A stretch of DNA of 64,000 nucleotides from Elusimicrobium minutum. GTDB taxonomy: Bacteria; Elusimicrobiota; Elusimicrobia; Elusimicrobiales; UBA9959. The translations under genes were made by a program, and so were the position numbers. The stretch lies in the NCBI GenBank assembly GCA_020723765.1, contig DYIF01000006.1:5486-69485 (forward strand), in the 5' to 3' direction. The first letter of the stretch is position 1, and each line of letters begins with the position of its first letter. Of the stretch, positions 3,842 to 17,092 are shown in pieces. A model generated the notes under the pieces. The model was not told where the DNA came from, made no database searches, and saw only the letters and a list, made by a program, of their open reading frames with translations.

Positions 3842-5175
3842 AATAATCCTTTTGCCGCCTCGAAAAGATATTTTTCCGAAAACCTGTCGGCTATTATCTG
3901 AACCCCGCAGGGAAGTCCTTTAGAATCTTTGCCGTAAGGGGCGCTTAAAGCGCATACCCCGGCTAAATTAACCGGGACGGTAAATATGTCGTTTAAATAC
4001 ATCGATAGCGGGTTTTCCGACTTTTCGCCTATTTTAAAAGCGGTTGTAGGGGTGGTGGGGATAATAAGAATATCCGCGGTTTTAAAAGCTTCGTCGAAAT
4101 CTTTTTTAACAAGCGCTCTTATTTTTTGAGCTTTCAGGTAATACTCGTCGTAGTATCCCGCGCTTAAAGCGTATGTTCCAAGTATTATTCTTCTTTTAAC
4201 CTCCGTTCCAAACCCTTTTCCTCTGGTCTTTTCGTATGAAGACTCTAAATCCTTTCCTTCCTCGTATCTGCCGTATCTTATGCCGTCGAATCTCGCTAAA
4301 TTGGAAGAGGCCTCGCTTGAAGCGACTATGTAATAAGAGCTTATCGCGTATTTCAGATGAGGCATTTTAATTTTAACCGTTTTTTTAGTTTTTTTTGAAA
4401 GCTCGCCTATCGCTTTATTAAAGTTTTCAATAACCGCTTCGTCGCATCCTTTTTCATCAAACTCTATTATCCCTAAACTCATATCCGATAGTTTTTTGTC
4501 GGAATGTTCTTTCATTTCTTTGTATGTTGTGGAATCGTTAGGGTCAAACCCTTTTATCGTATCGTAAGCCGATTTTAAATCATCTATAGTTTTTGCAAAA
4601 GGGCCTATCTGGTCTAAGCTTGAAGCAAACGCTATGAGCCCGTATCTTGAGACCGTTCCGTATGTGGGCTTAAGTCCGTATATTCCGCAAAAAGATGCGG
4701 GTTGCCTTATAGAGCCGCCGGTATCGGAGCCCAAAGAAATATCCGCAAAATCCGCGGCAACCGCCGCGGCAGAGCCCCCGGATGAGCCGCCCGGAACGTA
4801 ATCGGTATTTATCGGGTTTCTGGTCGGAAAATATGCCGAGTTTTCGTTGGATGAGCCCATCGCAAACTCGTCCATATTGGTTCTTCCTATTATTATCGCA
4901 TCCTCATCAATCATCTTTTTTACCGCCGTTGCGGTGTATGAGGATATATGTCCTTTTAAAATTTTAGACCCGGCTGTTATCTCTTTTCCTTCAAAAAGCA
5001 TGTTGTCTTTTATGGCCACTATCTTGCCGTATAGTTTTCCTTTTTCTTTTTTTAACTCCAATTCTTTCGCTCTTTTTATGGAATCCTCTTCCCATACCTC
5101 TATGAAAGATTTGATCTTTCCGTCTTTTTCTTTTATTTTATTTATATGTTCTCTTACTTTTTCCTCTAAATTCAT
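3838..5175 (-). CDS. gatA: Glu-tRNA(Gln) amidotransferase subunit A (amidase signature family)
   Basis: 445 aa. Amidase signature GGSSGGSAAAVAA...GSDTGGSIRQPASFCG. Confidence 0.95.
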   Translation of the reverse strand: MNLEEKVREHINKIKEKDGKIKSFIEVWEEDSIKRAKELELKKEKGKLYGKIVAIKDNMLFEGKEITAGSKILKGHISSYTATAVKKMIDEDAIIIGRTNMDEFAMGSSNENSAYFPTRNPINTDYVPGGSSGGSAAAVAADFADISLGSDTGGSIRQPASFCGIYGLKPTYGTVSRYGLIAFASSLDQIGPFAKTIDDLKSAYDTIKGFDPNDSTTYKEMKEHSDKKLSDMSLGIIEFDEKGCDEAVIENFNKAIGELSKKTKKTVKIKMPHLKYAISSYYIVASSEASSNLARFDGIRYGRYEEGKDLESSYEKTRGKGFGTEVKRRIILGTYALSAGYYDEYYLKAQKIRALVKKDFDEAFKTADILIIPTTPTTAFKIGEKSENPLSMYLNDIFTVPVNLAGVCALSAPYGKDSKGLPCGVQIIADRFSEKYLFEAAKGLL

Positions 5176-7878: not shown

Positions 7879-8727
7879 ATGAATATGGATAAAGTCATGT
7901 TTTTTGATTCCTTAGATTTTAGTAACAATGATTATAGAAAACTTCTTTTTTTATTAAAAAGTTCTAAAGTTTGTTTTTTTATTGGCAGCGGTTTTTCTAA
8001 TTATATAAAAGATTACCCAACTTGGGATAAATTGACTGAGATACTTTGTGAAAAATTGAATTATAAATATGAAAACTGTAAAGAAATAGATAATAGACGT
8101 TTGCTGGATATTCTTAAAAACCAAGATGAAGAAAAATTTTTAAATTATTTTGAAGAAATTTTTTTAGAAAAGGAAAAATCTGAGTTCTGTGAAAGTAGAA
8201 AAGTTAAAGTTTTTGAATATATAGATTCTTTGCTTAAGGTTAGTAATAAAAATATTATAGTTACAACAAATTGGGATAGAGAAATAGAAAAAAATTTAAA
8301 AATTAACAATAGTGATATAGCTATATATCCTAATTTAACTATTCCACCTAAAAAATATACTTATCTACATGGAAGGTTAGAAGTTAGGGATAGTTATGTG
8401 ATGACATTTGTAGATTATGTGGAAGCGAATGATAGGGATATTTATAAAAAATTTGTAAAATATTTAAGCGAAAATTATTGCGTTGTATTTATTGGTTATA
8501 GTTTAAAAGAAGATATAATAAGCCTAAACTTTACTAATTATAATAGAAATAATCATTATTTTGTAAAAGCTGTAAATATAGATAAAAAGTCTTCCCTTGA
8601 AATAGAAGCAGAATCATTATATAGAGCTCATAATATTATTACCTTTGCCTATAAAATAGAATTAGGAATTGAATTTATCTTTGAAAAATTATACGAAGAT
8701 TATTTAAAATATGGAGGTTTTGAATGA
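7879..8727 (+). CDS. SIR2-like (SIR2_2 type) domain protein, stand-alone catalytic domain
   Basis: Ordered motifs FFIGSGFS, VTTNWDREIE (TTNxD Asn), TYLHGRL (His) and VVFIGYSLKEDI. The protein is only 282 aa, leaving no room for a SLOG/Macro domain. The stop overlaps the next start (ATGA). Confidence 0.7.
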   Translation: MNMDKVMFFDSLDFSNNDYRKLLFLLKSSKVCFFIGSGFSNYIKDYPTWDKLTEILCEKLNYKYENCKEIDNRRLLDILKNQDEEKFLNYFEEIFLEKEKSEFCESRKVKVFEYIDSLLKVSNKNIIVTTNWDREIEKNLKINNSDIAIYPNLTIPPKKYTYLHGRLEVRDSYVMTFVDYVEANDRDIYKKFVKYLSENYCVVFIGYSLKEDIISLNFTNYNRNNHYFVKAVNIDKKSSLEIEAESLYRAHNIITFAYKIELGIEFIFEKLYEDYLKYGGFE

Positions 8728-11700
8728 GTAAAGTTTTTATTTCACATGTTTCTGAAGACCATAAATTTATTGAGAGATTGACTAAGAAGTTAGAAAAAGA
8801 AAAGGTAGAGTTTTGGGTTGATGATCTTGAATTAAAACCTGGTGATTCTATTGTTGAAAAAATAGAAGAAGGATTGAAAGATTCCGATATATATTTGCTT
8901 GTAATTTCTGACAATTCTATAAATAAACCTTGGTTTAAAAAAGAAATGAGTGTGGCTTTGATAAAAAAAATAAATGATAAAAAAGTGCTAATAATACCTA
9001 TACTTTTAGATTTTGATCCTAATCATCTACCAGAACTATTAAGAGATATATATTGTTTAAGGTTTTCTCGGTATGATTGGAATAATGAAGTTTTTAAACT
9101 TCTTGTTAATGTTATAAAAGATCATTTTAGAAAAAAAGAGCTTTATAATTCACAAGATAAATTTATTGAGAATGCATTTTATATAGATCATATGATAAAT
9201 AAAAAAAATGTTAATATTACTCCGAAGGAGTTAGGTTTTCTTTTGGATTTAATAAAAGAAGGTAAATATCTAAATTATTTTTTTAGGAAAGCAAAAAATC
9301 CAGAGTGGTTAAAGGTTTTGGTTAATGAAGGTTTTTTGTCTCCCGAACAATTCCCATCGCCCGAAGAAAACAAAGAACAAAAAGGATATTTCTACTTTCC
9401 TCACTGGCCAGCATTGGATTATTTGGAAAGAGTTTCAGAAAAACTAAAGGATTTAAACGAAAAAGATAGAAATGAATATATTGAAATTTTGTTAAAAATA
9501 ATTAGTGGTGTTATGGATTATCACATAAAAAATAATAAGAGATTGGATAATTTTAGAATATGGACATCTTTTGTAAAAATTCTTTCCAATATACCAAATA
9601 AAAAGATTGAGAAAGATAAGTTGGAGAGTTTTATTAAAACTTCTCTTGATTCTAATTTTAGTGTCGAAATGCAGTTTATAGAAATCGGAGAAAAATTATT
9701 GCCTAAATTTTTAAAGTCAGGCAATGTTCGGGATATCGAAAAAGCGGAGTTAATTATAAAACATTTAACACAGATAAAATGGTATCCAAAATATTCAGAA
9801 AAGCAAAGAGAAAAGTTTGAAGAAAATGAAGAATCTCCAAAACTCTTAGCCGGCGAGTACTGGTTTTACAAAATATTTAATGAAAACAGGGAACTAATCG
9901 CTGAGAGGGTCTCAGATGATACAGTTTTGATATTTGTCGATAGATTAGTTGAAATTTTTGAAAAAAGATACAAAGTAAAATTTGATTACTCTAATATATG
10001 GATTAGAGCAATAAAAGATGAGGCCGATCCTGATGAGGTTGAAACCGCTATTGCTCTGGTTTTAAGAGATGTCCTTAAAATTAGAGCAAGTAAAATAGAC
10101 ATAACTCCTATTATAGACAAATTAACATCGGGGGAATATTTTGATTATTCGTTTTTTAAAAGATTAATAATTTTTTTAATAGCAGAGAGTTTTGAAAAAT
10201 TAAAAAATATATTTAAACCGCTTTTAGAAAAAGAAGGGGAATTGTATTTTAACGATATAACTTATGAACCTGAGCTTTATTATCTTTTACAAAAAAATTC
10301 GAATAAACTTTCTGAGTTTTCAGATGTTATTGTTGATATAATAGAAAACAAAGTTCCAGAGAGAGATATCGAAATTGAAAATGAAGTTCGAAAAGAAAAA
10401 ATAATATCAAATGTAAGGCTAAAATGGTATTCCGCATTAAAGGATAACAATGTTTTTAAAGAATATTACGATAAATATTTAGAAAAAGTCGGAGAAGAGC
10501 CAAAACCATATTTTACTATGCCAAGAACATATGTCGGCCCTGGCCCATCGCCTTTAACAAAAGAAGAGATTTTAAATATGGAGGGTACAGAACTTGTAGA
10601 TTACATTAAAAATTTTAAACTCCAAACAAAACTTTCTTTTGGCGAAAAACCAACCGCGAGAGGATTTGCCGAGATGATTAAAGTTAGCGCTAAAGAAAAG
10701 CCTGAAAAATTTATAAAAAATTTTAAAGAATATGCTGAAATGCCATTTTTTTATTTTGCAGATATTTTGTGGGGGGTATATGACGTTTTAAGTAAAAACA
10801 AAATTGAAGTTGATAATATTAAAATTTTTATTAGTAATATATCAGAATATTTTAAAACAGATAAATTTTGGAATGATAAGTATTATTTAAAACCGAATAA
10901 TTTTGACATTTATCATGCTGACCACTTATCTATAATTAGCATTGTTTTTGTTATTTTTAATAAGATTATAGAGCAAGAAAATATTAAAAAAGATATAACA
11001 ATAATCTCGCTTATTTGGGATATAACCATAAATGTTATTGATAAAATAACTGAAAGAAAAGAAATAAAAAAATATAATGACGAAGATGATTGGTATCTTA
11101 CTAATTCAACATTGGCAAATATAATTAGAGTTTTAATTAATCTTTTATATTTACAAAAAATGAGTAGTAATATAGGTGAAATTATTAAAATTTTTAATAA
11201 TAGTTTCAACAGTTTATTGAATAATCAGTGTATAGAATCTGTTTTCTGGTTTGGAGCAAAATTCCCTTTTTTATATTCAGTTAATAAAGAATGGACTCAA
11301 AAAACAATTGAATTTATAAGAATCGATAATAAAAAATGGGAAATATTTATGTTAGGTTACACATGGAATAATCGTTTTGATTATGATTCTTATCGCTTTC
11401 TAAAGGAGGATTATGAAAAAGCCTTGGAATATAATTTTAAACAAGGAGATGATAGAATAAAAAGTTTTTTGGTTCAAAACATATGTTATTCATATTTGTC
11501 TAAAAAAGAGAATTTAGGTGATAATAATAGTTTGTTCTCTAAGTTGCTTGAAGAATGGGATTATAAATACATCGAAGAAATAATAGATTTTTTCTGGAGA
11601 CATAGAGACAAAAAAAATGAAGAAATATCTGGGCGAATTATTGATTTCTGGAGATTGATATTTAAAAACAAGTGCGAATATCCTGAAACATTAATTAATG

Positions 11701-12119
11701 TTTATAATCTTTTATCTGACTATGACAAGAAAATACTTTCGGAGTTATCGAAATTAGCTGTATTTTTAGATGAGATAAATGAAGAAAATTCGAAATGGCT
11801 TAAAATGTCGGCTCGTTTTATTGATTATATTAACTCATCGTTTTTTATAGAGTATCTTAATAAAATAAAGGATAAAGGAGAGAGTTATAAATATTTGACT
11901 GAAATTTTTAAAGAAATATTAAACCTAACTACTCCTTTTTATAAAAAAGAAGACATCAGGTCTATAATTGAATTTTTATATCAAAAATCAATGGGTTTGG
12001 AAGATAAAAAATTAGCTGTTGAAATTGCAGATAATATTGATGAAATTATAAATACTTACGAAGAAAGAGGATATGAATTCCTTCATGATTTATATGAGAA
12101 ATATCATAAGGATAATTAG
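8724..12119 (+). CDS. TIR-domain protein with about 1000-aa uncharacterised C-terminal region
   Basis: N-terminus KVFISHVSEDHKFIERLTKKLEKEKVEFWVDDLELKPGDSIVEKIEEGLKDSDIYLLVISDNSINKPWFKKEMSVAL is a TIR_2-type domain. GGAGG lies 7 nt upstream of the ATG. I found no P-loop or other catalytic motif in aa 140-1131. Confidence 0.8.
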   Translation: MSKVFISHVSEDHKFIERLTKKLEKEKVEFWVDDLELKPGDSIVEKIEEGLKDSDIYLLVISDNSINKPWFKKEMSVALIKKINDKKVLIIPILLDFDPNHLPELLRDIYCLRFSRYDWNNEVFKLLVNVIKDHFRKKELYNSQDKFIENAFYIDHMINKKNVNITPKELGFLLDLIKEGKYLNYFFRKAKNPEWLKVLVNEGFLSPEQFPSPEENKEQKGYFYFPHWPALDYLERVSEKLKDLNEKDRNEYIEILLKIISGVMDYHIKNNKRLDNFRIWTSFVKILSNIPNKKIEKDKLESFIKTSLDSNFSVEMQFIEIGEKLLPKFLKSGNVRDIEKAELIIKHLTQIKWYPKYSEKQREKFEENEESPKLLAGEYWFYKIFNENRELIAERVSDDTVLIFVDRLVEIFEKRYKVKFDYSNIWIRAIKDEADPDEVETAIALVLRDVLKIRASKIDITPIIDKLTSGEYFDYSFFKRLIIFLIAESFEKLKNIFKPLLEKEGELYFNDITYEPELYYLLQKNSNKLSEFSDVIVDIIENKVPERDIEIENEVRKEKIISNVRLKWYSALKDNNVFKEYYDKYLEKVGEEPKPYFTMPRTYVGPGPSPLTKEEILNMEGTELVDYIKNFKLQTKLSFGEKPTARGFAEMIKVSAKEKPEKFIKNFKEYAEMPFFYFADILWGVYDVLSKNKIEVDNIKIFISNISEYFKTDKFWNDKYYLKPNNFDIYHADHLSIISIVFVIFNKIIEQENIKKDITIISLIWDITINVIDKITERKEIKKYNDEDDWYLTNSTLANIIRVLINLLYLQKMSSNIGEIIKIFNNSFNSLLNNQCIESVFWFGAKFPFLYSVNKEWTQKTIEFIRIDNKKWEIFMLGYTWNNRFDYDSYRFLKEDYEKALEYNFKQGDDRIKSFLVQNICYSYLSKKENLGDNNSLFSKLLEEWDYKYIEEIIDFFWRHRDKKNEEISGRIIDFWRLIFKNKCEYPETLINVYNLLSDYDKKILSELSKLAVFLDEINEENSKWLKMSARFIDYINSSFFIEYLNKIKDKGESYKYLTEIFKEILNLTTPFYKKEDIRSIIEFLYQKSMGLEDKKLAVEIADNIDEIINTYEERGYEFLHDLYEKYHKDN

Positions 12120-12329
12120 CTGTTTTTATATAAATGGATAATTTAAATGATTTAGAATTTGATTTTTATGAAACAGAAAAAAATAAGACTTTTCTTATTA
12201 AAAAGACAAAACCTCGGTCGCCATATGGAAACCCTGCGGAACCTCACAACCGAGGATTTACATTGATTTTATATTTTAATAAGTTTAAATTAACTTATAA
12301 ATGCTAATAATTATTAAGTTTGTATAAAA

Positions 12330-12400: not shown

Positions 12401-13564
12401 ATGGAAATAAATAACATAATAAGAAATTTTGAGGAAATCCATAAAAGACTTATAGACTCTCTGCCGCAAAGAATAAGGCCGGTAAGTTTGGAATCGAATA
12501 TAAGCGAAAAGAGAGCGGTTATAGTGTACGGACTTAGGGGAGTCGGTAAAACCGTATTTCTTTTAAATGCGTCTAAAAACAAAAATTTTCTTTATTTCTC
12601 CGCGGATAACCCTTTAATATATAATATCCCCATAATAGAGTTAATCGATAAAATATTTAAATCCGGTTATGACGGAGTAGTAATAGACGAGATTCATTTT
12701 TCTAAGGATTGGGCGGCCCATTTGAAATCCGCTTATGACAGTTATCCTTCAAAAACAATATGGGTAAGCGGCAGCAGCAATCTTGTTTTGAAAAAAGGCC
12801 TTGCCGATTTATCGAGAAGATTTTTGTCCGTACATCTTCCTTTGCTTTCTTTTAGAGAATATATATATTTAAAAGAAGGGATAATGCTGGATAAGATAAA
12901 TTTATTTGAGAGCATAAAAAACTACGATAATATTAAATCTAAAAAAATAAATGTTTTAAAACTTTTTAAAGAACATATAAACGGCGGAATAAGGCCGATA
13001 TTTTATGAAGGCGATTATAGTGAAAGGCTTAAAAATATGATTGAAAAAAGTGTTTTTTACGACATTCCTTTTTACATAAATACGATTACCGACAATTATT
13101 TAAGATTAATGAACGGCATAATCGGACATTTGATAACTTCTCCTATCCCGACCTTAAATATTTCAAAAATGACCTCCGAGTGGGAGATAGGCAAACATAA
13201 ATTGTATTTTTTGCTTGAAATTATGGACAAAATGGAATTAATCAAAATTATAAAACCTAAAAATAAAAAACATACATATACAAAGGGCTCAAAAATATTT
13301 TTGACCGACTCTTCGATATATTCTTGTTTTAACGGAAATCTGGGAAATATAAGAGAATCCTATTTTGTAAACTCTGTTTCCAAATCCTATCCGATTTATT
13401 CAAGCGAAAACGAAGATGAGTATGATTATCTGGTCGGCGATTTAAAATTGGAAATAGGCGGCAAATCTAAAGAGATTAAAAAAGCCGATTTTGTCATAAG
13501 CGACGATATTGAAATGCCGGTTAAAAATAGAATACCTTTGTGGATGGCGGGACTTACTTACTAA
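12401..13564 (+). CDS. AAA+ ATPase, AAA_14/DUF4143-like
   Basis: Walker A YGLRGVGKT and Walker B VVIDEIHFSKDW. Overall layout is typical of the AAA_14 N-domain plus a DUF4143-like C-domain. Confidence 0.75.
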   Translation: MEINNIIRNFEEIHKRLIDSLPQRIRPVSLESNISEKRAVIVYGLRGVGKTVFLLNASKNKNFLYFSADNPLIYNIPIIELIDKIFKSGYDGVVIDEIHFSKDWAAHLKSAYDSYPSKTIWVSGSSNLVLKKGLADLSRRFLSVHLPLLSFREYIYLKEGIMLDKINLFESIKNYDNIKSKKINVLKLFKEHINGGIRPIFYEGDYSERLKNMIEKSVFYDIPFYINTITDNYLRLMNGIIGHLITSPIPTLNISKMTSEWEIGKHKLYFLLEIMDKMELIKIIKPKNKKHTYTKGSKIFLTDSSIYSCFNGNLGNIRESYFVNSVSKSYPIYSSENEDEYDYLVGDLKLEIGGKSKEIKKADFVISDDIEMPVKNRIPLWMAGLTY

Positions 13565-13573
13565 AATATTTTT

Positions 13574-14629
13574 ATGTTATTTTGGATACTGGAAAAAAGA
13601 GACAATATAAAATTCCCTTATAAGCTAACAATTAAGCAGGATAATGAAAAGATTTTAACTTTGCTTGTCCAGGATAGATGGCCGGGACAAAAAGGTAATA
13701 TCTTTTGTTTGAGAGAAACTCAGGCCGAACCTAATGAAAAATTAGAAGAGGTTGAAAGAATCCCGATAATTTCAATGCATAGATACGGTAAGAGAATATC
13801 CATAGTTTTAGATAGGCCTCAAGAAAAAAGATGCGATTTTATATTTTTAAAAAAACAATATAAAACTCATAATGGAGAATATGAGCAGATATTCTGGAAA
13901 ACTCAAAAAGCCATAAGCGAAACTACTCCTAAAGTTAAATTATCTACTTATTACTCAGGCGGGTTAAATATTATTATTGATGCAGGCGAAAAGTATCCCT
14001 GGAGGTTTAATAATTGTAATATTGAAAAAGATAAACTTCCTTGCGGAGATTATGCCTTAAAAACAGAAAGCGGGATATTAGCGGTTGTTGAAAGAAAAAG
14101 TTTTGAAAATCTTGTCGCTCATTTTTCAAAACTGACTATTCTTCATCAGCAGTTAGGGGAACTTTCCGCTTATAAATACTCCGCGCTTGTAATAGAAGCG
14201 GATTACTCGGATTTTTTAAAGCCGGACAAATTAAAATTCTATCCGCCGGTATTTGCCGCAAAAGCCATAGCGGAAATATATGCTTACCATCCAAATGTCC
14301 AAATAGTATTTGCCGGAAATAGAAAACTTGCAAACGAATGGACACATAGATTTTTTCTTGCCGTTATTTCAAACCAAAAAGACAATAACGCTCAGGTTTC
14401 TGAAGTTATTGCAAAATATGAGTATAAGAAAGAAAAGTTAGATTTTTTTGCCCTTAAAGATAGAATCAAAGCTGATTTGCCGGATGAATTTACGCTAAAA
14501 GATTTAAAAGAGAGATTTCCTGAAATAGATTTAAATACTATTAAAAAGATAATCGTAAACTTTAAAAGAAGAGGTATAATTAAAAGCATTGCTTTTGGAA
14601 AATATTCAAAAACTAATCTCATCATCTAA
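13574..14629 (+). CDS. ERCC4-like nuclease domain protein with C-terminal winged-helix-like region
   Basis: Motif series IIIDAGEKYPW ... LPCGDYAL ... AVVERKSFENL follows the ERCC4 pattern D-x-x-E, GDY, ERKxxxD, with N at the final D position. The C-terminus TLKDLKERFPEIDLNTIKKIIVNFKRRGIIKS looks like a wHTH. Starts 9 nt after the ATPase stop. Confidence 0.6.
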   Translation: MLFWILEKRDNIKFPYKLTIKQDNEKILTLLVQDRWPGQKGNIFCLRETQAEPNEKLEEVERIPIISMHRYGKRISIVLDRPQEKRCDFIFLKKQYKTHNGEYEQIFWKTQKAISETTPKVKLSTYYSGGLNIIIDAGEKYPWRFNNCNIEKDKLPCGDYALKTESGILAVVERKSFENLVAHFSKLTILHQQLGELSAYKYSALVIEADYSDFLKPDKLKFYPPVFAAKAIAEIYAYHPNVQIVFAGNRKLANEWTHRFFLAVISNQKDNNAQVSEVIAKYEYKKEKLDFFALKDRIKADLPDEFTLKDLKERFPEIDLNTIKKIIVNFKRRGIIKSIAFGKYSKTNLII

Positions 14630-14692: not shown

Positions 14693-14890
14693 CTTGTATT
14701 AAGTTTAACTTAAGCGCAAAAAACGACACTTAGCCATATTTTTTTAATCGTTTATAAATTAACGGACTATTAATACTTATAATTTGGTCCTTTTATATAG
14801 GTCCTATGGGCTTGACTTGTTAATGGAAGTCTGTTAAAACATAATTACGCAAATAATATGAAATATTATTATTTTTTGCGAAGAGGTTTT

Positions 14891-17092
14891 ATGTCTAATT
14901 TAATAAAAGCGGTTTTGTTTTCGCTATTTTTGTTCAATTATCAGGTTTTTGCCGAGCTTTCCGAAGCGGATTTTAAAAAACAATCCGAATCTGTCTCTAA
15001 AACTCTTCCAGATTCCAAATCGATAAACCCTTCTACTTCAACAACCATAGCCCCAGATTCGATAGATTTCTGGGACAAGTTAAACTCCGGGGTTTTAGAT
15101 AACTTATGTAAGCAGGCCAAATTGGACCTTAACAAAGATTTTTCCATGCCCAATGTCGGCGGTATAGAGGGCGGGCTTAAAAGGTATTTTGAAAGATATC
15201 CGGATAAAACATTGGCGTTGATAGACGAGGTTAACGTTAAAGTGGGCGCTTCGTTTGGTATGGAGGTTTTGGAAATACCGGATTTCGGGCCTTTAAACGT
15301 TGGGGTTTCGGGGAGCGTTGAGGGAAAATCGGTAGTCGTAAGGCCGCTTAAAAGCGACGATTATTGTAAAAATTTAAAAAAGCTTGTGGATTTGAGGGAA
15401 GTAAAAACCGTTCTCCCGATGAACGAAAAAAGGATTAGAGATATGGCGGTGGGGGAGATATGGAAGCTTCCGATAGTTACCAGATTCTCTTTTTCGGCCG
15501 GGGTTGGAGCCTCGCCCATTCCCTACATATCGGTTTCGGTGGGCGGAGGGGTTACAAAGGAAAGAACTCCTTCGGTAACGCTTTATAGAATGGATAACAA
15601 TACTTTGAGGCTTAGAATAAGAATACAAAGGGTATTTGTGGAGTCTGTATCGGCCGGAGTTTCTTCCACTTACGAAATAGCCCCGTCGGATATAGGGCTT
15701 TTTGAGGCTGAGAATGTGTTGACGAAATTGGTTAACAAAGAAATAGCGAAAAACATAAACAAATATCTGGCTTTAAAATTTAATTACGGGGTTTCAAAAA
15801 CGAGCGGAAGAAAGGTTATGATAGAGTTTTTGATAAATCCGAATAACGAAGAACAGCTCAAAGCCTTAACCGAATTTTTGGGCGGCAATTTGGGGATAAT
15901 ACAGAAGTTTATAAAGTTAGGTTTAAGGTTCAACGAGTTTAAAGAAGATAATAATTTTACGGAGGGTATGAGCTCTTTGAATAATGTAGCAAATCAGGCG
16001 TCTTCTCAACTCGGGGTAAAGCCGTCGTATGCCGGGGCAAATCATTATCATTCTCAGGGCAGCAACACAAACATAAACATACCGTTCATACATAGCCATA
16101 GCTGGTCGAGCAATAGTTCTTATAACAGGTATCAATCTTTGGACGGCAAGGAAGCCATTCACGTTCATCAGGCTCAAAGAGTATCAGACGGTTCTACATT
16201 GAATATACCGTTTCTGGGGACTTTGGTTAAGTATAGAGACGAAGAAAATGTCTACATAGTAAACAGAGAAAACGATAAAAAGATAGACGACCCGATGCTT
16301 TTGTACGAGTATAACGCCGGTTTTGTGAGAAACTCCGAAGATAGCGCAAGGTCGATGATAAGTAAGGCGAACGGAGTTTTAAAGTATGTGGCTATGGATG
16401 GGAACGGAACAAGCTCCGAGTATGTGATAGACCCGAACCTCGTTTTCCCGCCGTCTTTAAGGCAGGAGCTTGACGATATAAATTCTGGCCAGAGCGTTAA
16501 AACTTATAAAAGGGGAATGATAGCTTTTAAGCTTCTTATTTCCAAAGAAGGGATAAAACAAATAATTTTTTCCACTCCGGAAAGGATTTTGAAGGCGTAT
16601 CTTAATATGATGAGAGAGTTTGACTCTTTCATAGTGGATAAATTCGGTTCGTTTTTTAGTTTCGATAAAGATAAGGTTACATACGACTGGAAAAAAGTCA
16701 GAGAGAATATGGATTCTTTCGATGAAAATTATTCTCAAACCATAGGCGTTTTGGACCAGATAGCTAAATCCGCAACTAAACTTATAAAAGATATATTTTC
16801 CATAAGAGACGAGCAGGATAGCAAAAAACAGGCCGAGAAGTTTGCAAAGGTGGCAAGCGGAAAAGCGAGCACCGATATAGGCTACGACCAGTTTATGAAG
16901 GTTGTGGTTCAGCTTGTAAGCAAAGAAAATCTGGCGGGACAGCTTTATATAGCCACGGATAAGAAAGTAAAAGGCGAAGAGGATTTTAACGCAAATTATA
17001 CCATAGACCCGAATGGAGAAGTGACTCAAACGATGAACGAGATAGTTAATCAAAGAGATAGATTTTCAAATCCTTCTACGCTTAAAGATTAG
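14891..17092 (+). CDS. Secreted protein of unknown function (signal peptide)
   Basis: I prefer the ATG at 14891 (AGAGG 5 nt upstream) over 14858. N-terminus MSNLIKAVLFSLFLFNYQVFA|ELSE is a signal peptide. The protein is Gly/Ser/Val-rich and beta-like, with no recognisable catalytic motif. Confidence 0.6.
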   Translation: MSNLIKAVLFSLFLFNYQVFAELSEADFKKQSESVSKTLPDSKSINPSTSTTIAPDSIDFWDKLNSGVLDNLCKQAKLDLNKDFSMPNVGGIEGGLKRYFERYPDKTLALIDEVNVKVGASFGMEVLEIPDFGPLNVGVSGSVEGKSVVVRPLKSDDYCKNLKKLVDLREVKTVLPMNEKRIRDMAVGEIWKLPIVTRFSFSAGVGASPIPYISVSVGGGVTKERTPSVTLYRMDNNTLRLRIRIQRVFVESVSAGVSSTYEIAPSDIGLFEAENVLTKLVNKEIAKNINKYLALKFNYGVSKTSGRKVMIEFLINPNNEEQLKALTEFLGGNLGIIQKFIKLGLRFNEFKEDNNFTEGMSSLNNVANQASSQLGVKPSYAGANHYHSQGSNTNINIPFIHSHSWSSNSSYNRYQSLDGKEAIHVHQAQRVSDGSTLNIPFLGTLVKYRDEENVYIVNRENDKKIDDPMLLYEYNAGFVRNSEDSARSMISKANGVLKYVAMDGNGTSSEYVIDPNLVFPPSLRQELDDINSGQSVKTYKRGMIAFKLLISKEGIKQIIFSTPERILKAYLNMMREFDSFIVDKFGSFFSFDKDKVTYDWKKVRENMDSFDENYSQTIGVLDQIAKSATKLIKDIFSIRDEQDSKKQAEKFAKVASGKASTDIGYDQFMKVVVQLVSKENLAGQLYIATDKKVKGEEDFNANYTIDPNGEVTQTMNEIVNQRDRFSNPSTLKD

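What the first reader, a model, noticed from the sequence alone, without database searches (positions are those of the whole stretch)
7879..12119. SIR2-like gene translationally coupled to a giant TIR-domain protein: a Thoeris/DSR-like pair that fits neither known architecture
Seen: ORF 7879-8727 (282 aa) carries the SIR2_2-type motif series FFIGSGFS / VTTNWD / YLHG / FIGYSL. Its stop overlaps the next start (ATGA at 8724-8727, GGAGG 7 nt upstream). ORF 8724-12119 (1131 aa) opens with a clear TIR domain, including KPWFKKEM, where the Glu sits at the W-x-x-E position that is catalytic in NADase TIRs. Established: SIR2+TIR pairs define Thoeris, with a ThsA SIR2-SLOG or Macro effector and a roughly 200-aa ThsB TIR sensor. 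SIR2 fused to an 800-1000-aa helical sensor defines DSR1/DSR2. Inference: here the SIR2 protein is a bare catalytic domain with no room for a SLOG/Macro signal receptor, and the TIR rather than the SIR2 is attached to the large domain. This could be a new NAD+-depleting abortive-infection system. The large TIR protein would sense infection and either signal to or physically activate the small SIR2.
Basis: partly seen in the sequence, partly recalled or inferred. Interest (0 to 1): 0.85.

Follow-up and report, generated by a model that had tools for sequence, protein, structure and literature searches.

The report
Split DSR1-like defence with SIR2 plus TIR
This is a two-gene anti-phage system of the DSR1 sirtuin family in which a large phage-sensing protein carries a TIR enzyme domain and is paired with a small separate SIR2 enzyme, so one sensor controls two NAD+-destroying enzymes; it is a recurring, previously undescribed variant of a known system, not a new kind of system.

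Summary
ORF1 (7879-8727) is a complete stand-alone SIR2. ORF2 (8724-12119) is a TIR domain fused to a ~1000-aa helical domain, and the genes overlap by ATGA.

PADLOC's Dsr1 profile splits across the pair: ORF1 covers positions 22-248 and ORF2 residues 117-1128 cover 262-1225 (E 2.5e-105).

A survey of 135 related loci shows this sensor family with fused SIR2, split SIR2 (commonest in the sample), TIR, PIN or an unknown domain. Of 25 non-redundant TIR-bearing sensors, 18 have a distinct small-SIR2 clade immediately upstream. Hosts include Thermosulfurimonas dismutans and an archaeon. None has the ordinary DSR1-type SIR2.

DNA breakpoints show that SIR2+TIR is a ~1.5-kb exchangeable cassette on near-identical sensors. 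Catalytic residues are invariant in both enzymes.

Best reading: a phage-protein sensor that switches on two NADases, with no Thoeris-type signal receptor. It is a new variant of a known kind and moderately interesting. Mechanism and trigger are inferred, not shown.

The parts
7879..8727 (+). ORF1: stand-alone SIR2 NADase-type protein, 282 aa. NCBI calls it 276 aa from the Met at 7897. Catalytic Asn131 is at 8269-8271, Asp133 at 8275-8277 and His164 at 8368-8370.
   Evidence: Pfam SIR2_2 at E 2.7e-11. PADLOC Dsr1 model positions 22-248. AF2 model pLDDT 84.6, with best folds KomC and the SIR2 domains of DSR2 and Avs5 at TM 0.65-0.71. G36, G38, S40, T130, N131, D133, H164 and G165 are invariant in 17 of 17 partner SIR2s.
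8713..8727 (+). Junction: Shine-Dalgarno-like GGAGG (8713-8717), a 6-nt spacer, then ATGA (8724-8727), where the ORF1 stop overlaps the ORF2 start.
   Evidence: Read directly from the sequence. The same -4 overlap or tight abutment recurs in the homologous pairs.
8724..9098 (+). TIR domain of ORF2 (aa 1 to about 125). The candidate catalytic Glu74 is at 8943-8945.
   Evidence: Pfam TIR_2 at E 2e-25. Closest solved TIRs are 7uwg, AbTIR (8g83) and 7uxr at E about 1e-12, with E74 aligned to the AbTir motif Glu. E74 is invariant in 25 of 25 TIR sensors.
9099..12119 (+). DSR1-type sensor domain of ORF2 (aa about 126-1131): an all-helical repeat solenoid. The first ~70-80 residues after the TIR belong to the exchangeable cassette side of the breakpoint.
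   Evidence: PADLOC Dsr1 PDLC04166 positions 262-1225 of 1227 at E 2.5e-105. AF2 model pLDDT 89.6, all-alpha. Fold hits are only generic HEAT/ARM solenoids. Swap breakpoints lie at codons ~192-209 in relatives.
7879..9330 (+). Inferred effector cassette: small SIR2 gene + TIR + linker, about 1.45 kb here. It corresponds to the block exchanged in relatives.
   Evidence: L025 and L055 share both flanks, while a 1.55-kb SIR2+TIR block replaces a 1.07-kb ordinary-SIR2 block. L011 and L030 are 99.1% identical in DNA only from codon ~209 onward. The window's own breakpoint is inferred by analogy.

Best explanation
The pair is a two-gene anti-phage system of the DSR1 (defence-associated sirtuin 1) family. 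ORF2's helical C-terminal domain is the sensor. By analogy with DSR1 and DSR2 it would bind a phage protein made during infection, and E. coli Dsr1 is triggered by the major capsid protein. The effector end is a cassette of two NAD+-consuming enzymes. One is a TIR domain fused to the sensor's N-terminus. The other is a small SIR2 made from the overlapping upstream gene, which probably binds the sensor protein non-covalently, as the SIR2 domain is joined covalently in fused homologs. Sensor activation, probably through oligomerisation, would switch on both enzymes. NAD+ would be depleted and phage replication blocked. Shown: domain identities, homology to the DSR1 sensor family, recurrence of the pairing, cassette exchange, and invariant catalytic residues. 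Inferred: physical complex, trigger, dual NADase activity and outcome.
For: The PADLOC Dsr1 profile splits colinearly across ORF1 and ORF2. A homology chain links the sensor to canonical Dsr1. Of 25 non-redundant TIR sensors, 17 have an intact small SIR2 immediately upstream, and one more has it with a single in-frame stop. Hosts span diverse phyla and include T. dismutans S95 and a Woesearchaeota archaeon. These SIR2s form clades separate from the SIR2s of split or fused DSR1-like loci, even where sensors are 75-88% identical. DNA breakpoints define SIR2+TIR as one exchangeable block. SIR2 and TIR catalytic residues are invariant. Each effector also occurs alone with this sensor, so each is probably a competent effector: TIR-only in 6 loci, and this SIR2 type with a bare sensor in L029 and L088. 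ORF1 is a complete defence-type SIR2 fold, and the partner-dependent stand-alone SIR2 KomC is the best structural match. Neighbours are R-M and other defence genes, and GC is low, indicating an island. Published work shows that DSR1 depletes NAD+ and that EcDsr1 is triggered by the phage major capsid protein.
Against: There is no experiment and no complex prediction, so SIR2 binding to ORF2 is inferred from fused homologs only. Similarity to canonical Dsr1 is remote. NCBIfam Dsr1 does not hit ORF2, and profile-versus-sequence hhalign with near-canonical P0162 is not significant. The capsid trigger therefore cannot be transferred with confidence. Why two NADases would be needed is unexplained. 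The window's copy is the most divergent member, at 27-43% identity to the others. The locus sample was chosen by similarity to ORF2, so frequencies are not population estimates.
Confidence: 0.6

Rival explanations
1. Compact Thoeris-like signalling. The sensor-fused TIR makes a cyclic ADPR isomer or a related nucleotide on activation, and this small molecule switches on the separate SIR2.
For: The SIR2+TIR pairing recalls Thoeris. The closest solved TIRs are the AbTir group, which from my own knowledge make cADPR isomers. The TIR catalytic Glu is invariant. The TIR-associated SIR2s are a distinct clade, which could reflect a special regulatory property.
Against: ORF1 has no SLOG, Macro or other ligand-sensing domain. 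Its 282 aa are filled by the SIR2 fold. The same SIR2 type occurs with TIR-less sensors in L029 and L088. TIR sensors work without any SIR2 in 6 loci. Overlapping genes suggest a stoichiometric complex, not an amplifying signal.
Confidence: 0.15
2. Only one of the two domains is the real effector. The other is structural or regulatory, for example a TIR acting as an oligomerisation scaffold for SIR2, or a SIR2 acting as a brake or adaptor on the TIR sensor.
For: From my own knowledge, TIR domains assemble on activation in many systems. KomC shows that a small SIR2 can depend on a partner. The SIR2 evolves faster than the TIR or sensor: L004 versus L025 is 35% for SIR2 against 83% for TIR. The SIR2 has been lost or carries a stop in L007, L013 and L096.
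Against: The catalytic residues of both enzymes are invariant across all pairs, which is not expected for a purely structural role.
Confidence: 0.15
3. Not one system: either a decayed DSR1 gene broken in two, or two unrelated defence genes adjacent by chance.
For: The Dsr1 profile is split across two ORFs. L007 shows that nonsense mutations do occur.
Against: The split, with its own start codon and a tight stop/start junction, recurs in 17 divergent loci and in 60+ TIR-less split loci. Both ORFs are full length with invariant catalytic residues. The cassette moves as a block.
Confidence: 0.03

Closest known systems
DSR1 (defence-associated sirtuin 1; Gao 2020, Garb 2022), broad sense as in PADLOC model PDLC04166
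   Same: Homologous large helical sensor domain. A SIR2 effector with the same catalytic residues. Domain order is colinear with the fused protein. Defence-island context. Bacillus plasmid proteins from pXO1 and B. mycoides p419 are fused members of the same branch.
   Different: The SIR2 is a separate polypeptide of a distinct clade. A catalytic-type TIR is fused to the sensor where the SIR2 would join. The match to canonical E. coli-type Dsr1 (NCBIfam NF041818) is only remote.
Thoeris type I (ThsA SIR2-SLOG + ThsB TIR)
   Same: A two-gene operon that combines a SIR2 and a TIR protein. NAD+ chemistry is expected.
   Different: The SIR2 has no SLOG or Macro receptor. The TIR protein is 1131 aa with a DSR1-type sensor, not a ~200-aa ThsB. 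The ThsB_TIR Pfam match sits only at threshold, 21.2 bits against a 21.2 cut-off. Either effector occurs alone with the sensor.
Avs7/Dsr1 shared sensor family with swappable effectors (Lee et al., Nature 2026, PMC13581612)
   Same: One conserved helical sensor is combined with many effectors (NADases, nucleases). Split proteins are noted. Effector exchange is inferred.
   Different: That work does not describe a SIR2+TIR double effector in its main text. Whether this branch is in their data set could not be checked because the supplements are not held. No structural match to Avs7 could be tested.
TIR + helical-repeat sensor systems (E. coli TIR-II; BcTir/Tpr; PDB 9m0n TIR-TPR protein)
   Same: An N-terminal NADase-type TIR is joined to, or encoded next to, a helical-repeat sensor.
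   Different: No SIR2 partner is present. Only the TIR part of 9m0n matches ORF2 by sequence.
Kongming KomBC (stand-alone SIR2 KomC with partner KomB)
   Same: KomC is the best structural match to ORF1, at TM 0.67-0.71. It is a small SIR2 that works only in complex with a partner protein.
   Different: The partner is a HAM1-type dITP-binding protein and activation is by a nucleotide signal. There is no sequence-level relationship beyond the SIR2 fold.

Membership tests
DSR1 (strict, NCBIfam NF041818 equivalog) | Whole-protein score at or above the curated cut-off (1400 bits) | tested here: not met
   ORF1 scores 32.6 bits on the SIR2 part only, and ORF2 has no hit.
DSR1 (strict) | Single polypeptide with an N-terminal SIR2 fused to the C-terminal sensor | tested here: not met
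   There are two ORFs with an ATGA overlap, and a TIR sits at the sensor's N-terminus.
DSR1 (broad, PADLOC PDLC04166) | C-terminal sensor domain homologous to the family profile | tested here: met
   ORF2 aa 117-1128 match profile positions 262-1225 of 1227 at E 2.5e-105. Fused members P0007 and the B. mycoides p419 protein hit the same model at E 1e-159 to 1e-179. A homology chain reaches NF041818.
DSR1 (broad) | SIR2 domain with catalytic Asn and His and a GxGxS NAD-binding motif | tested here: met
   N131, D133, H164 and G36-x-G38-x-S40 are present and invariant in 17 of 17 partners. The fold matches the DSR2 and KomC SIR2.
DSR1 (broad) | NAD+ depletion and phage resistance on infection | not testable with these tools
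   This needs expression, phage challenge and NAD+ measurement.
Thoeris | ThsA effector with a signal-binding SLOG (type I) or Macro/TM (type II) domain | tested here: not met
   Only SIR2_2 is found in ORF1. The 282 aa are fully accounted for by the SIR2 fold.
Thoeris | ThsB: small stand-alone TIR sensor protein | tested here: not met
   The TIR is the first ~125 aa of a 1131-aa protein. The ThsB_TIR match is at the cut-off, and PADLOC ThsB hits are weak at 1e-5 to 1e-6.
DSR2 | Sequence match to the Dsr2 family (SIR2 + tail-tube-binding CTD) | tested here: not met
   Neither NCBIfam nor PADLOC gives a Dsr2 hit for either ORF. Only the SIR2 fold is shared.
Avs7/Dsr1-type capsid sensor | Bilobed, sharply bent TPR sensor that binds phage major capsid protein | tested here: inconclusive

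The most novel reading that the evidence does not exclude
The small SIR2 and the TIR form an obligate two-enzyme unit with coupled chemistry. One possibility is that a TIR-made nucleotide acts directly on, or is further processed by, a receptor-less SIR2. Another is that the pair turns NAD+ into products that phage NAD+-reconstitution pathways (NARP1/2) cannot recycle. Either would explain why a distinct SIR2 clade travels with the TIR as one cassette.
Probability: 0.15. Interest if true: 0.8.

Novelty: new variant of a known kind. Interest (0 to 1): 0.55.

Why it matters
It shows that the DSR1-type sensor accepts interchangeable effector cassettes, and that one recurrent cassette carries two different NAD+-degrading enzymes at once. 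That gives a natural, genetically simple system in which to ask several questions. Why would a cell deploy SIR2 and TIR together: redundancy against phage inhibitors, different breakdown products, or enzyme coupling? How is a SIR2 that lacks any receptor domain switched on by a partner? How fast are effector ends swapped between near-identical sensors? It also flags that single-gene 'Dsr1' models in annotation tools will mislabel or miss these two-gene forms.

Tried and rejected
- The word-indexed homolog search with ORF1 found only itself, and with the SIR2 alignment it found few hits. The exhaustive HMMER search was needed.
- The search for related loci with the SIR2 alignment failed because no stretch was conserved enough.
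- Promoter and terminator scans were at chance level in this AT-rich DNA and are not used as evidence.
- The PDB sequence search found no solved DSR1-type sensor.
- hhalign of the family profile against one near-canonical Dsr1 sequence was not significant, so the link to canonical Dsr1 rests on a chain of HMM and BLAST matches.
- The viral-contig scan found no relatives, and only a TIR-only hit appeared in phage genomes.
- Enterobacterial plasmid hits were TIR-only and were not Dsr1.
- Supplements of Lee et al. were not held, so their architecture tables could not be checked.
- No conserved third gene was found.
- A multimer prediction of the pair was not possible with the tools.
Full report
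**1. The observation**

The window holds ORF1 at 7879-8727 (282 aa) and ORF2 at 8724-12119 (1131 aa), both on the + strand. The ORF1 stop overlaps the ORF2 start in ATGA at 8724-8727. GGAGG lies at 8713-8717, six bases before the ATG.

ORF1 matches Pfam SIR2_2 at E 2.7e-11. ORF2 residues 4-123 match TIR_2 at E 2e-25. There is no DUF4020 hit. GC falls to about 25.5% across the pair, against about 37% around it.

**2. What the large domain is**

PADLOC's Dsr1 profile PDLC04166 has 1227 positions and is split across the two ORFs. ORF1 residues 28-243 cover positions 22-248. ORF2 residues 117-1128 cover positions 262-1225 at E 2.5e-105. The TIR therefore sits where the SIR2 joins the sensor in a fused DSR1-type protein.

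The relation to canonical Dsr1 is remote:
- NCBIfam's Dsr1 equivalog (cut-off 1400 bits) matches only ORF1, weakly, and does not match ORF2.
- A family profile compared with one near-canonical sequence (P0162) is not significant.

A chain of significant, colinear matches does connect the two:
- My sensor HMM matches P0144 at 2e-46 and P0240 at 3e-14.
- P0240 matches P0196 at 6e-49.
- P0196 matches P0162 at 1.4e-16 over 898 aa.
- P0162 matches NF041818 at 2.3e-103.

PADLOC has three Dsr1 models. PDLC04166 fits this branch and also fused 'SIR2 family proteins' on Bacillus plasmids such as pXO1 and B. mycoides p419.

The AF2 model of ORF2 is confident (pLDDT 89.6). It shows a TIR α/β domain followed by an all-helical solenoid. 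The PDB fold search returns only generic HEAT/ARM solenoids.

**3. The SIR2 and the TIR**

ORF1's AF2 model (pLDDT 84.6) is a complete defence-type SIR2. The best structural matches are KomC, a 264-277-aa stand-alone SIR2 that works with a partner, at TM 0.67-0.71. The SIR2 domains of DSR2, Avs5, SIR2-HerA and ThsA follow. ORF1 has no room for a SLOG or Macro domain, and no profile match to one.

The TIR is closest to 7uwg, AbTIR (8g83) and 7uxr, at E about 1e-12. E74 aligns with the Glu of AbTir's WTNYELDG motif.

**4. Survey of relatives**

The window's protein is recorded from an Elusimicrobiales MAG. The sensor family carries different N-termini: SIR2, TIR, PIN_12, an unknown ~150-aa domain, or nothing.

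I fetched 135 loci and classified them with local HMMs. The non-redundant counts are:
- TIR sensors, 25 in all. Seventeen have an intact small SIR2 immediately upstream. One (L007) has that SIR2 with a single in-frame stop. Six have no SIR2. One is cut by the contig end.
- None of the TIR sensors has the ordinary DSR1-type SIR2.
- Bare sensors with an upstream SIR2, 66 in all. Sixty-one have the ordinary type.
- The Fisher test gives p about 1e-13. This is indicative only, because the loci are related.

Hosts of the pair include Nitrospirota, Thermosulfurimonas dismutans S95 (a cultured isolate), Stahlbacteria, Spirochaetia, Melainabacteria, Goldiibacteriota and a Woesearchaeota archaeon.

ORF1's nearest relatives in an exhaustive search are 280-312-aa stand-alone SIR2s at 29-34% identity. 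They rank ahead of any fused DSR1. In a SIR2 tree the TIR-associated SIR2s lie apart from those of split or fused DSR1-like loci.

**5. Cassette exchange**

In the sensor tree the TIR forms are scattered among other architectures. Their nearest neighbours often have a different effector end. DNA comparison gives sharp breakpoints:
- L011 (SIR2+TIR) and L030 (unknown N-domain) are 99.1% identical from about codon 209 of the sensor gene through the downstream flank, and unrelated before that.
- L012/L026 and L015/L035 are about 87% identical from codons ~192-193 onward.
- L025 and L055 share both flanks at about 80% identity. Between them, a 1.55-kb block (small SIR2 + TIR + linker) replaces a 1.07-kb block (ordinary SIR2 + sensor N-terminus).

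SIR2+TIR is therefore one exchangeable effector cassette. It is not a TIR inserted into an existing split DSR1.

**6. Constraint and independence**

SIR2 residues G36, G38, S40, T130, N131, D133, H164 and G165 are invariant in 17 of 17 partners. TIR E74 is invariant in 25 of 25 sensors.

TIR sensors fall into two lineages:
- A W-type (WVxRE) that almost always has the SIR2. L013, L096 and L007 look like recent losses.
- An F-type (EFVxNExKT) that stands alone. It comprises L003, L047, L089 and L104, and probably L002.

The TIR-associated SIR2 type also occurs with TIR-less sensors in L029 and L088. Each effector can therefore serve this sensor alone. This favours two parallel effectors over an obligate signal relay.

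No third gene is conserved. An Eco57I-like R-M gene lies upstream in 5 of 17 paired loci. Type I R-M, Mrr and HNH genes are frequent neighbours.

In the window, the downstream AAA_14 ATPase matches PADLOC candidate family PDC-S01. Upstream are the housekeeping genes pcrA and gatCAB.

**7. Mechanism**

Published work shows three things. DSR1 is a single protein whose C-terminal domain detects phage and whose SIR2 depletes NAD+; in B. subtilis the depletion is transient and growth is not arrested. E. coli Dsr1 shares its sensor with Avs7 and is triggered by the major capsid protein. NARP1 and NARP2 let phages rebuild NAD+.

My best explanation is a DSR1-type sensor that, on binding a phage protein, activates both a fused TIR and a non-covalently bound SIR2, and so depletes NAD+. 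The complex, the trigger and the double activity are inferences.

The rivals are Thoeris-like signalling from TIR to SIR2, a single true effector with the other domain acting as scaffold or regulator, and chance adjacency or a broken gene. The last is contradicted by the survey.

**8. Novelty**

I found no description of a SIR2 plus TIR-fused DSR1-type sensor in the searchable literature. Lee et al. note diverse effectors and split proteins on this sensor family, but their tables were not available.

I rate this a new variant of a known kind. Interest is moderate.

Noticed in passing
window 12401-14629: Two further genes lie in the same low-GC stretch: an AAA_14 ATPase (387 aa) that matches PADLOC candidate family PDC-S01 at E 5.6e-17, and an ERCC4-domain nuclease-like protein (351 aa). 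They may be a second defence module of the island.
   Followed up: partly
window 14858-17092: A 744-aa ORF with no Pfam or PADLOC match lies at the edge of the low-GC region.
   Followed up: no
L030 113-590; also L017, L024, L031, L033, L039, L041, L044, L048: An unknown Cys/His-rich N-terminal domain of about 150 aa, with no Pfam match, replaces the effector on the same sensor. No SIR2 gene lies upstream. L030's sensor DNA is 99.1% identical to that of L011 (SIR2+TIR). It is probably an uncharacterised effector domain.
   Followed up: partly
P0059, P0072, P0074 and about nine more: A clade of the same sensor family carries an N-terminal PIN_12 nuclease domain instead of an NADase. One example is a protein from Cellulophaga baltica.
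   Followed up: partly
L096 4998-8346 (Ca. Magnetobacterium): The TIR (118 aa) and the sensor (977 aa) are separate adjacent ORFs with no SIR2 upstream. This is either a frameshift or a further split of the system.
   Followed up: no
L007 about 4009-5001: The SIR2 partner is full length in one frame (269.7 bits) but carries a single in-frame stop at a conserved Leu. This is a very recent pseudogene or a sequencing error.
   Followed up: yes
L004 750-2489, L103 347-3169, L108 3-1196, L111 204-3170, L134 1417-4164: A homologous Eco57I-like methyltransferase/restriction gene sits directly upstream of the SIR2 gene in 5 of 17 paired loci. Type I R-M genes flank other family members.
   Followed up: partly
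L136 2945-6940 (B. mycoides p419); B. anthracis pXO1 records H2-H12: Bacillus virulence and mega-plasmids carry a fused SIR2-sensor protein of this DSR1-like branch, about 27% identical to ORF2's sensor. It is annotated only as 'SIR2 family protein'.
   Followed up: partly
window 12210-12260: A 7-bp inverted repeat (CCTCGGT ... ACCGAGG) with a loop of about 30 nt lies in the 280-nt gap after ORF2. The terminator scan did not call it.
   Followed up: no
PDB 9m0n / 9umd: A solved 824-aa 'tetratricopeptide repeat protein' has an N-terminal TIR that matches ORF2's TIR at E 4e-11. I could not find the paper describing it.
   Followed up: partly
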